A stretch of 64,000 nt of DNA, from the NCBI RefSeq assembly GCF_029227855.1, contig NZ_CP074356.1; one strand, 5' to 3'. The position numbers were made by a program. The DNA comes from Escherichia coli. GTDB taxonomy: Bacteria > Pseudomonadota > Gammaproteobacteria > Enterobacterales > Enterobacteriaceae. This document shows, piece by piece, positions 16,201 to 19,200 of the stretch; position 1 is the first letter of the stretch, and each line of letters opens with the position of its first letter.

Positions 16201-19200
16201 AGATTCATCGGTACATTTTCCGGGATTTGCGCCACGCGGTGGAACACATCGGAAAATCCCTGGCGATACATAAAATGTTCCATATCCAGCGCCGGTAACG
16301 CCGTTAAATGTTCTCGTTCGGCTTCCCGATCGTTATTCAACAGGCTGCGTACCGTAGCGGCATATTTCTTCCCTGCTTCATCGCCATCGACCAGTACATG
16401 CCATTCAATCCCCATTCGGCGGGCAAATTTAACCAGTGGCTTTAGCCCGGACTGGGCAAACTCAATGACCTTGATCCCTTCAGCATCAAAATGATGTCCG
16501 CACTGACGCGCCAGTTCATTGATAACCCAGGTTTCCGTTTCCCCTTCCACCAGCAGCCAGCAGCGTGCAAACAGCGATGACGGACGATTAAAACGAATGT
16601 GGAAAGAGATGCGTCGGCTATCTTCGGTACTCAAGCCACTCGGCCCCAGACGCCAGGCGGCAACGCGCGAGGACTCACGTACCAGTCGGCAAATATGCTC
16701 TACCGGCGTTAACGAAAGCAACTCACCCGAGTTGGTGGTGGCAATGCGCTGCAATGGCAGAAGATTCAACAGATGCCAGGCAACTGAAAGCATAATGGGG
16801 TGTAAACGGGTTTCTGGATCTTCGATCAGCAACAATGGACGGGCGTCTTTATCCAGTCGCAATGTGCCTTTTGCCTGCAATAAAGTAGCAAACAGGCCGA
16901 GCAAAATAACCCGATACGAGCGCCCTCCTGGTCGGTCAATCATCCGGTTGATGATATCCAGATAGCGCCAGCTTCGTTGCTCATTGCTGGCTCGCCGCCG
17001 CATTAAACGATATCGCGCCTGTCCGGCCCCCTGCTCAGAGAAATAATGCTCAAGCAGCTGTACCATTGCGGAAAGTCCCTGACGAATCTGCCCATCAGAG
17101 AGATTTTGCGGATGTGAGGATAGCTCACGGGCGAGGAAATCGAGCTGGCGCGCGGTGACTTCCACATTAGGGACATTTGGCACCGTGCCGTTACGAATAC
17201 GGCGCATAAAACGGGCATCACGCAAGCGCAGCACCGGCATTAAACGCACCAGATGGCGTGCCTGGTCGTTAATATCCTCGACATCAATCGGATGTCCGTC
17301 TTTATCGAGAAAACTGCGGAGTGTCATCACGCTGCCGTCTTCCGCACTCTCCCCTTCCAGACGATAAAAAATACGGTGATAGCCATCGGTGCATGGCGTC
17401 CAGCACGCTTCCAGCGGCCGATAGCGGCGAACCCGATGTCGGCCTGGCAGCGATTCGCGGAAGGTCAAAATAATATGCAGATGATGTTCTCGCCCGTTGA
17501 TATCTCCCGGCGGGAACCAGAAATCGTCGCGCTCAAAATGGTAGAGATCTGATTCTGGCGATAGCAGCAGAGTTAAGGCGTCCAGCAAGCTGGATTTACC
17601 CCACGCGTTCTCCCCAATCAGGACGTTGTTTTGTTCCAGCATCAACGACAAACGGTTGATACCGCGAAAACCCACAATTTCAACGCGCTCAAGAATCATA
17701 TCCCCTCCAGAAATATGTGACTTATCCTTTACGCTGGCAGTATAACGGGAAAGGCCATGCTAATACGTGATGACATCACATTTAAGCATGGCAAATGTCT
17801 GAAAAATGAGCGAATAATCGCGTTATACTCCCTCTTGCTGATAAGCCTGCAAAAACAACAAAATCAAATAATTAGCATGATAAATTATTTTTTATTACGC
17901 CTAAAGGATTAAATCTTTTGCTTGCACTACACTGTCAATCAGACAAATGACTATATGGGGCAACCCGCTGTTGCCCTAAATCAAATTTACTGGATTTATT
18001 TATCTGGTGAATGACTCGCCTTCGTTTTTAAAATAGCCGCGCATTATTTCCGTCGTCACTTTTTTACGACGACCCTATAAAACGACCATATTTTTCACAG
18101 GGTCAATTTTTAATTGAGGTGGATATGTTCAGAAAATTAGCAGCTGAATGTTTTGGTACTTTCTGGCTTGTTTTTGGTGGCTGTGGTAGTGCTGTACTGG
18201 CCGCAGGCTTCCCGGAATTAGGCATTGGTTTTGCCGGCGTGGCGCTGGCATTCGGTCTGACCGTTCTGACGATGGCCTTTGCTGTTGGTCATATTTCTGG
18301 TGGTCATTTTAACCCGGCGGTCACTATTGGTTTATGGGCTGGCGGACGTTTCCCGGCAAAAGAAGTCGTTGGCTACGTAATTGCCCAGGTTGTCGGCGGT
18401 ATTGTTGCGGCGGCGCTGCTGTATTTAATTGCCAGTGGTAAAACGGGTTTTGACGCGGCAGCCAGCGGTTTTGCTTCTAACGGTTATGGCGAGCATTCGC
18501 CAGGCGGTTATTCCATGCTTTCCGCGCTGGTAGTTGAACTGGTATTGAGTGCAGGTTTCCTGCTGGTGATCCACGGCGCAACCGACAAATTCGCTCCTGC
18601 TGGTTTTGCGCCGATCGCTATTGGTCTGGCCTTAACCCTGATTCACTTAATCAGTATTCCGGTGACTAACACTTCTGTTAACCCGGCGCGCAGCACCGCG
18701 GTTGCTATCTTCCAGGGCGGCTGGGCATTAGAACAACTGTGGTTCTTCTGGGTGGTGCCAATTGTCGGCGGTATTATCGGTGGTCTGATTTACCGGACTC
18801 TACTGGAAAAGCGTAATTAATTAACGCAGAAGGCCTGGCGCAATGTCAGGCCTTTTTTAAATATATTGATTCATCTTCCTGTTGCGCTCCTTGATGTGTT
18901 AAGCCACATATAGTCACTGGCGCAGGGAGCGCGCAGGGGGCGGCCAATCGCCGCCGCCCCCTGCACCCCCGGGCTCTGGCGAACAAAATCGCCGCTGCGC
19001 GGTGCCCTCGACTTATCCCTTGCGGCTACCGGGTCGGGCGCGAGGTAACATATATGGACGCTCCCGGAATGCAATGCTTTCTTCAGTTATGTAATAAAAC
19101 GGGTAGGTGCAGCCATATATCCGGTTTCTGATGGGATTTTTATCCCGAACCATGATGAAATCCGCCAGGCAGGTACCAATCATCCTCTACGGGCTAACTT

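What the first reader, a model, noticed from the sequence alone, without database searches (positions are those of the whole stretch)
18920..19050. GC-rich palindromic extragenic element downstream of aqpZ
A roughly 130-bp stretch much more GC-rich than its surroundings contains a strong hairpin (CAGGGGGCGGC-N8-GCCGCCCCCTG) and further imperfect inverted repeats (GGCGAACAAAATCGCC; CGCGCAGGG...). It does not match the REP consensus I know. It may be another class of extragenic repeat (BoxC/RSA-like), a structured RNA, or a recombination target. IS110-family elements often target repeat-associated sequences, and the IS lies about 230 bp away.
Basis: seen in the sequence. Interest (0 to 1): 0.35.

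Follow-up and report, generated by a model that had tools for sequence, protein, structure and literature searches.

The report
Known RRS/TRIP1 repeat, split by IS
The GC-rich stretch is one half of a known E. coli repeat (TRIP1a, also called the lysO "replication risk sequence") that makes replication leave a short single-stranded gap; here a mobile element has cut it in two, and it also resembles an RNA family of unknown function.

Summary
Window 18920-19050 is 70-72% G+C and holds a perfect 12-bp inverted repeat. It is not a complete element. It is the aqpZ-side 137 bp of a ~222-266 bp repeat; the other part lies at 20438-20531. A 1,386-bp IS110-family insertion (IS1111 group) separates the two parts.

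K-12 has the uninterrupted site. The repeat is already described as TRIP1a (Rudd 1999; Li et al. 2024) and as RRS-lysO (Pham et al. 2023/2024). [quoted passage not shown] Their exact G4 motif sits at 18951-18970 on the minus strand.

Three points were absent from the four TRIP1/RRS papers I checked:
- The IS enters the same hairpin loop in four TRIP1 loci, and its 3' non-coding end carries a 9-nt complement to the target.
- At least 31 complete E. coli genomes have both RRS split this way.
- The element is homologous to Rfam TwoAYGGAY RNA. Kluyvera relatives score 54.2 and 44.6 bits against a threshold of 43; E. coli copies score 30-31. Its loops match the CsrA-binding consensus.

Verdict: already known, with modest new angles.

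The parts
18915..19051 (-). aqpZ-side part (137 bp including the AT core) of the 222-bp RRS-lysO / TRIP1a element. On the G4/AYGGAY strand this is the 3' part.
   Evidence: Aligns at 95.6% to the K-12 aqpZ-lysO intergenic element up to ...GGTAACAT. Pham et al. place the RRS 168-389 bases upstream of lysO. With lysO ATG at window 20690 and the IS removed, that gives 18915-19051 plus 20438-20522.
18951..18970 (-). G-quadruplex-forming motif GGGGGTGCAGGGGGCGGCGG of the RRS.
Evidence: Exact match, the only one in the window even allowing up to 2 mismatches. The motif is as published in PMC10592627.
18933..18964 (.).
   Evidence: The stem covaries between paralogues: GGGGGCGGC/GCCGCCCCC, GGGTGGTGGC/GCCACCC and GGGGGAGGAGGC/GTCCTCCCCC.
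18884..18932 (.). Tail stem GCGCTCCTTG/CAGGGAGCGC enclosing an AT-rich loop, at the outer edge of TRIP1a. On the minus strand it reads AAGGAGCGC, which resembles a Shine-Dalgarno sequence, and is followed by tiny non-conserved ORFs.
   Evidence: I4. It is replaced by CGTTCAC/GTGAACG in the yegH-asmA type.
19050..19051 (.). AT core dinucleotide, left copy.
   Evidence: K-12 empty site is ACAGGG-AT-GTTACC. The occupied site has AT on both sides of the IS.
19052..20435 (-). IS110-family insertion sequence, IS1111 group (1,384 bp; 1,386 bp with one core copy).
   Evidence: Absent from K-12. Present in 179 of 5,426 genomes and annotated 'IS110 family (RNA-guided) transposase'. It has the same junctions at four different TRIP1 loci.
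19052..19324 (-). Right end of the IS: 273-nt non-coding region, the expected site of the bridge/seek RNA in IS1111-group elements.
   Evidence: Left end is 85 nt and right end 273 nt. Folds better than shuffles, z -3.5. Durrant et al. place IS1111-group bridge RNAs in the right end.
19206..19214 (-). GAGGUAACA, complementary to the target's right flank plus the T of the core (TGTTACCTC). It lies in a predicted internal loop.
   Evidence: It is the only match of 9 nt or more between the right end and the target.
19325..20350 (-). Transposase/recombinase gene, 341 aa.
   Evidence: ORF. Pfam DEDD_Tnp_IS110 (56.4 bits) and Transposase_20 (87 bits).
19054..19064 (.). Right sub-terminal inverted repeat of the IS (ATGGACGCTCC on the + strand).
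   Evidence: 11-bp sub-terminal repeat pair found.
20419..20429 (.). Left sub-terminal inverted repeat of the IS (GGAGCGTCCAT on the + strand).
20436..20437 (.). AT core dinucleotide, right copy.
20438..20531 (-). lysO-side part of TRIP1a/RRS (the RRS portion ends at 20522). On the G4/AYGGAY strand this is the 5' part.
   Evidence: 97.9% identical to K-12. G+C is 0.56-0.61.
20458..20475 (-). Hairpin 1, GCCCACAUGGAUGUGGGC, with loop AUGGAU (an AYGGAY loop).
   Evidence: Invariant in all Escherichia, Kluyvera and Pseudocitrobacter copies. Aligned to hairpin 1 of Rfam TwoAYGGAY.
20436..20454 (-). 5' arm of hairpin 2, GGGCGCGUUUUACAGGG-AU. The hairpin is cut in its loop by the IS.
19036..19051 (-). 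3' arm of hairpin 2, AU-GUUACCUCGCGCCC.
18831..18859 (+). aqpZ intrinsic terminator (AGGCCTG-N9-CAGGCCT followed by a T run). Not part of the element; it marks the end of the aqpZ transcription unit.
   Evidence: Sequence. Li et al. place TRIP1a 31 bp downstream of this terminator.

Best explanation
The stretch is the G-quadruplex-bearing half of TRIP1a, also called RRS-lysO, one of the two 'replication risk sequences' that flank the E. coli terminus region. According to the published work, the element acts as DNA. When the replisome unwinds it, the G-rich strand is the lagging-strand template. That strand folds into a G-quadruplex plus stable hairpins, blocks completion of the Okazaki fragment and leaves a post-replication gap of up to about 2 kb that loads SSB and RecA. 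The authors propose this gap relieves topological stress. In this genome the element has been cut in two, in the loop of its second hairpin at an AT core, by an IS1111-group IS110-family insertion sequence. That IS most likely finds the site through a guide in its right-end RNA. What is shown here: the identity of the element, its anatomy, the IS junctions and the strand orientation. What is taken from the literature: gap formation. What is inferred: RNA-guided targeting, and whether the split element still works.
For: Identity:
- 95.6% and 97.9% identity of the two halves to the K-12 aqpZ-lysO intergenic element, which is uninterrupted there.
- The position matches TRIP1a (70 bp after aqpZ, 158 bp before ybjE/lysO) and RRS-lysO (168-389 bp upstream of lysO).
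- The published G4 motif is present exactly at 18951-18970 on the minus strand.

Orientation:
- GC skew of the window's + strand is negative in 7 of 8 bins. The minus strand, which carries the G4, is therefore the G-rich strand and so the lagging-strand template, as the papers require.
- The K-12 copies at lysO (+) and dusC (-) fit the same rule.

Copy number:
- Median 3, range 1-7, in line with the 0-5 copies reported by Li et al..

IS:
- DEDD_Tnp_IS110 and Transposase_20 domains.
- Left end 85 nt, right end 273 nt, 11-bp sub-terminal repeats, matching the IS1111-group definition.
- Identical junctions ACAGGG-AT | IS | AT-GTTACC at aqpZ-lysO, dusC-yohP, ybaP-copA and yegH-asmA.
- A 9-nt complement to the target, abutting the core, in a predicted internal loop of the right end.
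Against: Gap formation was shown only for intact RRS in K-12, not for an IS-split copy. The two halves are now 1.4 kb apart, and each half alone folds only modestly better than shuffles. The guide match is a single 9-mer. I estimate roughly 0.08 such matches by chance anywhere in the right end and far fewer at this exact register. The second (left-target) guide is only weakly recognisable (GGAUG). Compensatory changes in the stems show selection for pairing but cannot tell DNA folding from RNA folding. The homology to an Rfam RNA family leaves an RNA-level role open.
Confidence: 0.9

Rival explanations
1. The element is, or is also, a gene for a structured small RNA of the TwoAYGGAY family transcribed from the window's minus strand. 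Its two hairpin loops (CAUGGAUG and ACAGGGAUGU) would bind a CsrA dimer, making it a small sponge or a CsrA-controlled RNA. The IS insertion would then be a gene disruption.
For: - Rfam TwoAYGGAY (RF01731) is the top hit on the intact K-12 copy: 30.6 bits, E 0.0086, full model length.
- Kluyvera relatives of the element, by alignment, pass the gathering score of 43 (54.2 and 44.6 bits). Pham et al. report RRS in Kluyvera as nearly identical to E. coli.
- A classical Lachnospiraceae member shares the identical 18-nt hairpin 1 (76.2 bits).
- In Kluyvera and L043 the second loop is a true CAUGGAUG.
- Gardner and Eldai proposed TwoAYGGAY as a CsrA-sequestering RNA (PMC4333381).
- From my own knowledge, the E. 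coli loop UACAGGGAUGU matches the CsrA SELEX consensus RUACARGGAUGU and the CsrB repeat CAGGAUG.
- 13 base pairs carry compensatory double changes.
- The AYGGAY strand folds 12 kcal/mol better than its complement.
Against: - E. coli copies are below Rfam's threshold (30-31 bits against 43).
- No consensus sigma-70 promoter or intrinsic terminator on either strand.
- No ncRNA is annotated at any K-12 copy examined.
- The gene-level CLIP tables of Potts et al. mark ybjE and dusC 'No' in all their yes/no columns, whose headers I did not read. This is a weak negative because the tables are gene-centred.
- Covariation is as good on the other strand (13 pairs).
- Orientation follows replication direction, which a DNA-level role explains and an RNA gene does not require.
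Confidence: 0.2
2. The element is a selfish, non-autonomous mobile repeat (MITE-like) with no cellular function. Its multiple copies and variable number reflect past transposition, and the IS simply uses it as a harmless landing pad.
For: - Copy number varies from 1 to 7.
- Presence or absence differs between strains at ybaP-copA: K-12 has ybaQ plus BIMEs there instead.
- There is a copy in the opposite orientation with different spacers at aqpZ-lysO in strain E69.
- Edaphovirga cremea has at least 11 near-identical copies.
- IS110-family elements commonly target intergenic repeats (references therein).
Against: - No terminal inverted repeats or target-site duplications were apparent when I inspected the ends in the alignment.
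- Copies sit at the same five or six loci across thousands of genomes.
- The lysO and dusC pair is symmetric about dif and conserved across enterobacteria.
- Deletion of both is reported as not tolerated without compensating amplification.
Confidence: 0.1
3. It is ordinary intergenic sequence: part of the aqpZ terminator region or a lysO regulatory region that happens to be GC-rich.
For: It lies between the aqpZ terminator and the lysO promoter region.
Against: The aqpZ terminator is a separate hairpin at 18831-18859. Near-identical copies occur at unrelated loci. The fold z-scores are -4.9 and -5.4.
Confidence: 0.01

Closest known systems
TRIP1 repeats (Rudd 1999; Li et al. 2024, PMC10888264), also called RRS, replication risk sequences (Pham et al. 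2023 NAR PMC10287960; Pham et al. 2024 PMC10592627)
   Same: Same sequence, same locus (aqpZ-lysO, i.e. TRIP1a/RRS-lysO), same G4 motif and same strand relative to replication. It has a dusC partner, TRIP1c/RRS-dusC, which is a full copy in K-12 and is also split by the IS in the two genomes closest to the window. The copy-number range is comparable.
   Different: Here the element is interrupted by a 1.4-kb IS in the loop of hairpin 2. The four TRIP1/RRS papers I checked do not mention this. Term searches in the two later Pham papers returned nothing. The only 'insertion sequence' hits in the 2023 NAR paper concern read mapping. The sections of Li et al. that I read do not mention it. A diverged yegH-asmA copy also exists that is not among Li et al.'s five types.
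Rfam RF01731 TwoAYGGAY RNA (Weinberg et al. 2010), proposed as a CsrA-binding sRNA (Gardner and Eldai 2015)
   Same: Same architecture: a long outer stem enclosing two adjacent hairpins. Hairpin 1 has the same CAUGGAUG loop and even the same 18-nt sequence as a Lachnospiraceae member. Kluyvera relatives pass the family threshold.
   Different: E. coli copies score 30-31 bits (threshold 43) because loop 2 is AGGGAU rather than AYGGAY. The enterobacterial version has an extra G-rich 3' hairpin (the G4 region) and a tail stem that the classical family lacks. Its documented activity is at the DNA level.
IS1111-group IS110-family elements that target hairpin-forming repeats (IS621 in REP; ISPpu9 in REP; IS4321/IS5075 in Tn21 inverted repeats; IS1111-attC elements)
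   Same: DEDD recombinase, short left end and long right end, 11-bp sub-terminal repeats, a 2-nt core and orientation-specific insertion into one position of a repeated palindromic target.
   Different: The target is TRIP1/RRS rather than REP, attC or a transposon end. I did not determine the ISfinder name of this IS.
REP/BIME, BoxC, RSA and ERIC/IRU enterobacterial intergenic repeats
   Same: Intergenic, palindromic, multi-copy and GC-rich.
   Different: Much longer (222-266 bp) with far fewer copies. There is no REP-type Rfam hit (naRNA4) on the element, whereas such hits appear in neighbouring BIMEs. RSA is listed as 6 copies of 150/151 bp in K-12, which does not fit.

Membership tests
TRIP1a / RRS-lysO | Sequence identity to the K-12 element between aqpZ and lysO | tested here: met
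   95.6% (left half) and 97.9% (right half) identity to NC_000913.3, with the two halves contiguous in K-12.
TRIP1a / RRS-lysO | Published position: 168-389 bp upstream of lysO; about 70 bp after the aqpZ stop | tested here: met
   With lysO ATG at 20690 and the IS removed, the RRS maps to 18915-19051 plus 20438-20522. The aqpZ stop is at 18820.
TRIP1a / RRS-lysO | G4 motif GGGGGTGCAGGGGGCGGCGG | tested here: met
   Exact match at 18951-18970 on the minus strand, unique in the window.
TRIP1a / RRS-lysO | G4 strand is the lagging-strand template | tested here: met
   The window's + strand has negative GC skew in 7 of 8 bins, so the minus (G4) strand is the G-rich strand. The strand rule holds for the K-12 copies. 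This is inferred from skew, not from a mapped origin.
TRIP1a / RRS-lysO | Triggers post-replication ssDNA gaps | not testable with these tools
   This needs ssGap-seq or single-molecule replication. It was shown only for intact K-12 copies.
Rfam TwoAYGGAY (RF01731) | Covariance-model score at or above the gathering score (43 bits) | tested here: not met
   E. coli copies score 30.6, 30.9 and 30.0 bits. Kluyvera relatives score 54.2 and 44.6 bits, and a Lachnospiraceae member 76.2 bits. The split copy in the window gives no hit.
Rfam TwoAYGGAY (RF01731) | Two adjacent hairpins whose terminal loops read AYGGAY | tested here: inconclusive
   Hairpin 1 loop is AUGGAU (met). Hairpin 2 loop is AGGGAU in Escherichia (not met) but AUGGAU in Kluyvera genomosp. 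3 and L043.
Rfam TwoAYGGAY (RF01731) | Enclosing outer stem supported by covariation | tested here: met
   Compensatory double changes at pairs 25/166, 33/143, 36/140, 37/139, 42/133 and 45/130 of the alignment. The signal is equally good on the opposite strand.
Rfam TwoAYGGAY (RF01731) | Is transcribed as an RNA | not testable with these tools
   No expression data were available. No promoter or terminator consensus was found.
Csr/Rsm-type CsrA-sequestering sRNA | Several GGA motifs in hairpin loops, its own promoter and terminator, and CsrA binding | tested here: inconclusive
   Two loop GGA motifs plus AAGGGAUAA and AAGGAGC. No promoter or terminator. In the gene-level tables of Potts et al., ybjE and dusC are marked 'No' in all yes/no columns, whose headers I did not read. 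Binding was not testable.
REP/BIME | 35-40-bp REP consensus units | tested here: not met
   No naRNA4/REP-type hit on the element, whereas BIMEs nearby in other loci give 50-68 bits.
RSA | About 150 bp, six copies in K-12 | tested here: not met
   In the K-12 loci examined there are two full copies of about 270 bp and one 195-bp remnant. Li et al. add a partial TRIP1b at putP. RSA figures are from PMC5172473 Table 1. The RSA sequence itself was not available for comparison.
IS110 family, IS1111 group (the inserted element) | DEDD recombinase with a Transposase_20 domain | tested here: met
   PF01548 at 56.4 bits and PF02371 at 87 bits.
IS110 family, IS1111 group (the inserted element) | Short left end, long right end, sub-terminal inverted repeats of 7-17 bp | tested here: met
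   Left end 85 nt, right end 273 nt, repeats of 11 bp. The definition is from Durrant et al..
IS110 family, IS1111 group (the inserted element) | Right-end bridge/seek RNA with loops complementary to target and donor | tested here: inconclusive
   One 9-nt target complement in a predicted internal loop. The second target guide and the donor guides were not convincingly identified, and no covariance model was available.

The most novel reading that the evidence does not exclude
TRIP1/RRS elements are the enterobacterial branch of the TwoAYGGAY family, which also occurs in Shewanella, Edaphovirga (at least 11 copies) and gut Clostridia. One of two things would then follow. Either the 15-year-old 'orphan RNA motif' is really a DNA-level element that programs replication gaps across phyla, or the RRS is also an expressed CsrA-binding RNA and part of its phenotype is RNA-mediated. 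In addition, an RNA-guided IS homes specifically to this element. Natural strains with both RRS split, some with no other full-length copy, show which part of the RRS is dispensable.
Probability: 0.3. Interest if true: 0.75.

Novelty: already known. Interest (0 to 1): 0.4.

Why it matters
The element itself is published, so the finding is not a discovery. It matters in three smaller ways.

1. The RRS authors report that they cannot delete both RRS cleanly. Yet at least 31 complete natural genomes carry an IS in the same hairpin of both RRS. At least one, TCM3e1, has no other place holding the 5' half. These are ready-made strains for asking whether the G4-bearing half alone suffices.

2. Two identical 1.4-kb IS copies in inverted orientation on either side of the terminus add a larger substrate for the terminus-spanning inversion that Li et al. 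attribute to TRIP1. TCM3e1 shows exactly that arrangement.

3. The link to Rfam TwoAYGGAY connects a functionally studied DNA element with an orphan RNA family proposed to bind CsrA. That gives both fields a concrete experiment.

Tried and rejected
- RSA/BEE95 was my first guess from memory. I rejected it because its copy number and length in K-12 do not fit. Literature searches for RSA gave nothing usable.
- An Rfam scan of the split copy in the window gave only a chance mir-611 hit inside the transposase gene. The intact K-12 copy had to be used instead.
- I looked for a gene consistently following the element: a toxin-antitoxin module or a small ORF after the Shine-Dalgarno-like AAGGAG. A RelE/ParE pseudogene plus an HTH gene follow only the yegH-asmA copy in some strains. 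The tiny ORFs are not conserved. I dropped this idea.
- Promoter and terminator scans of the K-12 locus found nothing on either strand.
- I tried to decide RNA versus DNA from strand asymmetry of wobble pairs. The result was not decisive: 21 of 1,518 non-canonical cells against 30 of 1,403, and 57 against 40 G-U cells.
- The supplementary tables of the CsrA CLIP-seq paper are gene-centred and say nothing about the intergenic element itself.
- The genome-contig scan with the 18-mer also returned coding-sequence chance matches (esterase-like, TerC-like and Methylobacterium genes), which I set aside.
- I did not determine the ISfinder name of the IS.
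Full report
**Observation.** The stretch is as described. G+C is 0.70-0.72 for 18900-19049, against 0.41-0.50 around it. A perfect 12-bp inverted repeat with an 8-nt loop lies at 18933-18964, with several imperfect ones around it. Two corrections are needed.

- The GC-rich sequence resumes at 20438-20531, on the far side of the neighbouring insertion sequence.
- The IS does not lie 230 bp away. Its end abuts the stretch at 19052.

**The intact element.** The aqpZ-lysO intergenic region of E. coli K-12 aligns to the window on both sides of the IS at 95.6% and 97.9% identity. 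It is continuous across the insertion point...GAGGTAAC-AT-CCCTGTAAAA.... The window therefore holds a ~222-266 bp element split by a 1,386-bp insertion, made of 1,384 bp of IS plus a second copy of an AT core. The intact K-12 element folds far better than shuffled sequence on either strand (z -4.9 and -5.4). The separated halves fold only modestly better than shuffles.

**Copies and conservation.** The left half finds matches in 5,425 of 5,426 complete E. coli genomes, with a median of 3 places per genome and a maximum of 7, almost all chromosomal and none annotated. Reading the flanks of IS copies in other genomes revealed paralogous elements at dusC-yohP and ybaP-copA (about 95% alike), and a diverged one at yegH-asmA.

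In the K-12 loci I examined there are full copies at aqpZ-lysO and dusC-yohP on opposite strands, and a 195-bp 3' remnant at yegH-asmA. There is none at copA, where ybaQ and BIMEs lie instead.

**What it is.** A literature search identified it.

- Li et al. 2024 (PMC10888264) describe TRIP1 repeats, named by Rudd in 1999. TRIP1a lies 70 bp after aqpZ and 158 bp before ybjE (lysO). TRIP1c is at yohI (dusC) and TRIP1e at copA/ybaP. Genomes hold 0-5 copies, and the repeats mediate large inversions.
- Pham, Cox, Goodman and colleagues (PMC10287960, PMC10592627, and a 2026 preprint) call the lysO and dusC copies RRS, replication risk sequences. These are 222-bp GC-rich repeats, 650 kb on either side of dif, carrying the G-quadruplex motif GGGGGTGCAGGGGGCGGCGG on the lagging-strand template.
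- In their work the RRS block polymerases in vitro and cause post-replication gaps that load RecA and SSB. Deleting or inverting both RRS changes genome-wide supercoiling. They cannot both be deleted without a compensating amplification.

Using the published position (168-389 bp upstream of lysO), the RRS maps to 18915-19051 plus 20438-20522. The finding is therefore almost exactly the aqpZ-side part of RRS-lysO.

GC skew shows that the window's minus strand is the G-rich strand. The G4 is therefore on the lagging-strand template, as the papers require. It is not RSA, which is listed as six copies of 150/151 bp in K-12.

**The insertion sequence.** The 341-aa ORF has the DEDD_Tnp_IS110 and Transposase_20 domains. 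The element has an 85-nt left end, a 273-nt right end and 11-bp sub-terminal inverted repeats. This is the IS1111-group layout described by Durrant et al., who place the bridge RNA of that group in the right end.

The IS occurs in 179 of 5,426 genomes, with a median of two copies. In every locus I read, covering four different TRIP1 sites in eight genomes, it sits at the same position and in the same orientation: ACAGGG-AT | IS | AT-GTTACC.

That position is the loop of the element's second hairpin, GGGCGCG-UUUUACAGGGAUGUUACCU-CGCGCCC. The right end folds better than shuffles (z -3.5). In a predicted internal loop it carries GAGGUAACA, which is complementary to the target's right flank and the adjoining core base. 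I read this as one target guide of a bridge/seek RNA. The partner guide is only weakly recognisable, so RNA-guided targeting is an inference.

**Both RRS split in natural strains.** A junction query (IS left end, element 5' half and lysO flank) is covered at 80% or more in 93 genomes. The equivalent dusC junction is covered in 94 genomes. At least 31 accessions appear in both of the 60-row lists, including SMS-3-5, JNEC-KY178 and the O169:H41 strain closest to the window.

In strain TCM3e1 the two loci read mdtQ-yohP-IS-lysO and dusC-IS-aqpZ. This is the terminus-spanning inversion with an IS at each junction. Each junction query found only two places in that genome, so no third copy of the element's 5' half is present. 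In strain 2016C-3878 the lysO copy additionally carries a nested IS3.

None of the four TRIP1/RRS papers mentions an IS. Term searches in the 2024 and 2026 Pham papers returned nothing. The only 'insertion sequence' hits in the 2023 NAR paper concern read mapping. The sections of Li et al. that I read do not mention one.

**Link to an RNA family.** On the intact K-12 copy the best Rfam match is TwoAYGGAY (RF01731). It scores 30.6 bits against a gathering score of 43, with E 0.0086, over the full model, on the G4 strand.

A scan of one genome per species with the 18-nt hairpin 1 (GCCCACATGGATGTGGGC) recovered relatives in:
- Escherichia species, Pseudocitrobacter and Kluyvera;
- Edaphovirga cremea (11 copies);
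- Shewanella and a Thiotrichaceae MAG;
- classical TwoAYGGAY members in Lachnospiraceae MAGs.

It also returned some chance matches inside coding sequences.

Kluyvera relatives of the element pass Rfam's threshold at 54.2 and 44.6 bits, Edaphovirga reaches 42 and the Lachnospiraceae member 76.2. In Kluyvera genomosp. 3 and L043 the second loop is a true CAUGGAUG; in Escherichia it is ACAGGGAUGU.

In a 23-sequence alignment, 13 base pairs carry compensatory double changes. The signal is just as good on the complementary strand, so it does not separate RNA folding from single-strand DNA folding.

Gardner and Eldai proposed TwoAYGGAY as a CsrA-sequestering RNA. From my own knowledge, the E. coli loops resemble the CsrA SELEX consensus and the CsrB repeat. 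Against an RNA gene:
- no promoter or terminator consensus was found;
- no ncRNA is annotated at these sites;
- the gene-level CLIP tables give nothing for the neighbouring genes.

**Verdict.** The finding is real and is a known element, TRIP1a/RRS-lysO. More precisely, it is the G4-bearing half left on the aqpZ side of an IS1111-group insertion.

Novelty is 'already known'. Interest is moderate because of the IS homing, the natural double-split strains and the TwoAYGGAY homology. As far as I could check, these three points are not in the papers on this element.

Noticed in passing
window 19052-20435; L095 and L096 (NZ_CP066806.1): At least 31 complete E. coli genomes carry this IS in both the lysO and the dusC RRS. 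In TCM3e1 the flanks are swapped (mdtQ-yohP-IS-lysO and dusC-IS-aqpZ). This is a terminus-spanning inversion with an IS at each junction.
   Followed up: partly
L093 265-2479 (NZ_CP029747.1): The IS110-family copy in the lysO RRS of strain 2016C-3878 itself carries a nested IS3-family element near its 5' end.
   Followed up: no
L002 2440-4100; L091 5502-5696 (K-12 yegH-asmA): A diverged TRIP1-like copy (about 85% to TRIP1a, with compensatory stem changes) lies between yegH and asmA. It is not among the five TRIP1 types of Li et al. K-12 keeps only a 195-bp 3' remnant. The IS inserts into this copy as well.
   Followed up: partly
L006 and L008, 3115-3562: In some strains the yegH-asmA copy is followed on the same strand by a RelE/ParE-family toxin pseudogene and an HTH gene. 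K-12 has the HTH gene ybaQ at the copA site, where other strains have TRIP1e.
   Followed up: no
L025 3800-4300 (CP089930.1, strain E69): The aqpZ-lysO copy is in the opposite orientation, with unrelated spacer sequences on both sides and no aqpZ terminator hairpin. L026, L047 and L087 show the same for the dusC side. This looks like replacement or independent acquisition rather than simple inversion.
   Followed up: no
L046 8620-8700 (Escherichia whittamii): A 75-nt insertion inside the yegH-asmA-type copy carries a further hairpin, GGCCCAGGGAUGGGCC, with the same AGGGAU loop.
   Followed up: no
L054 9360-9423; L043 1594-1657; L019 2218-2281; L068 4104-4167: In Kluyvera, Pseudocitrobacter and an Enterobacteriaceae MAG, a second TwoAYGGAY core (37-49 bits) lies 100-250 nt from the TRIP1 homologue on the opposite strand, forming an oppositely oriented pair.
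   Followed up: no
L055-L065 (Edaphovirga cremea): Eleven near-identical copies of a related element, with the CAUGGAUG hairpin in second position and a CAGGAUG hairpin first. They have variable 3' G-rich hairpins and score 42 bits against TwoAYGGAY.
   Followed up: no
window 18860-18895, minus strand: The element's outer end reads AAGGAGCGCAAC and is followed 6-10 nt later by an ATG in many copies. The ORFs are 3-27 codons long and not conserved, and the AAGGAGCGC is paired in the tail stem.
   Followed up: partly
window 19420-19477, minus strand: A weak Rfam mir-611 match (20.2 bits, E 0.89) inside the transposase gene. I regard it as chance.
   Followed up: no
plasmids NZ_CP076707.1 and NZ_CP022280.1: Near-full or partial copies of the same IS occur on a few E. 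coli plasmids. A 44-bp piece of the element's big hairpin matches a 42-kb plasmid (H30). The plasmid targets were not examined.
   Followed up: no
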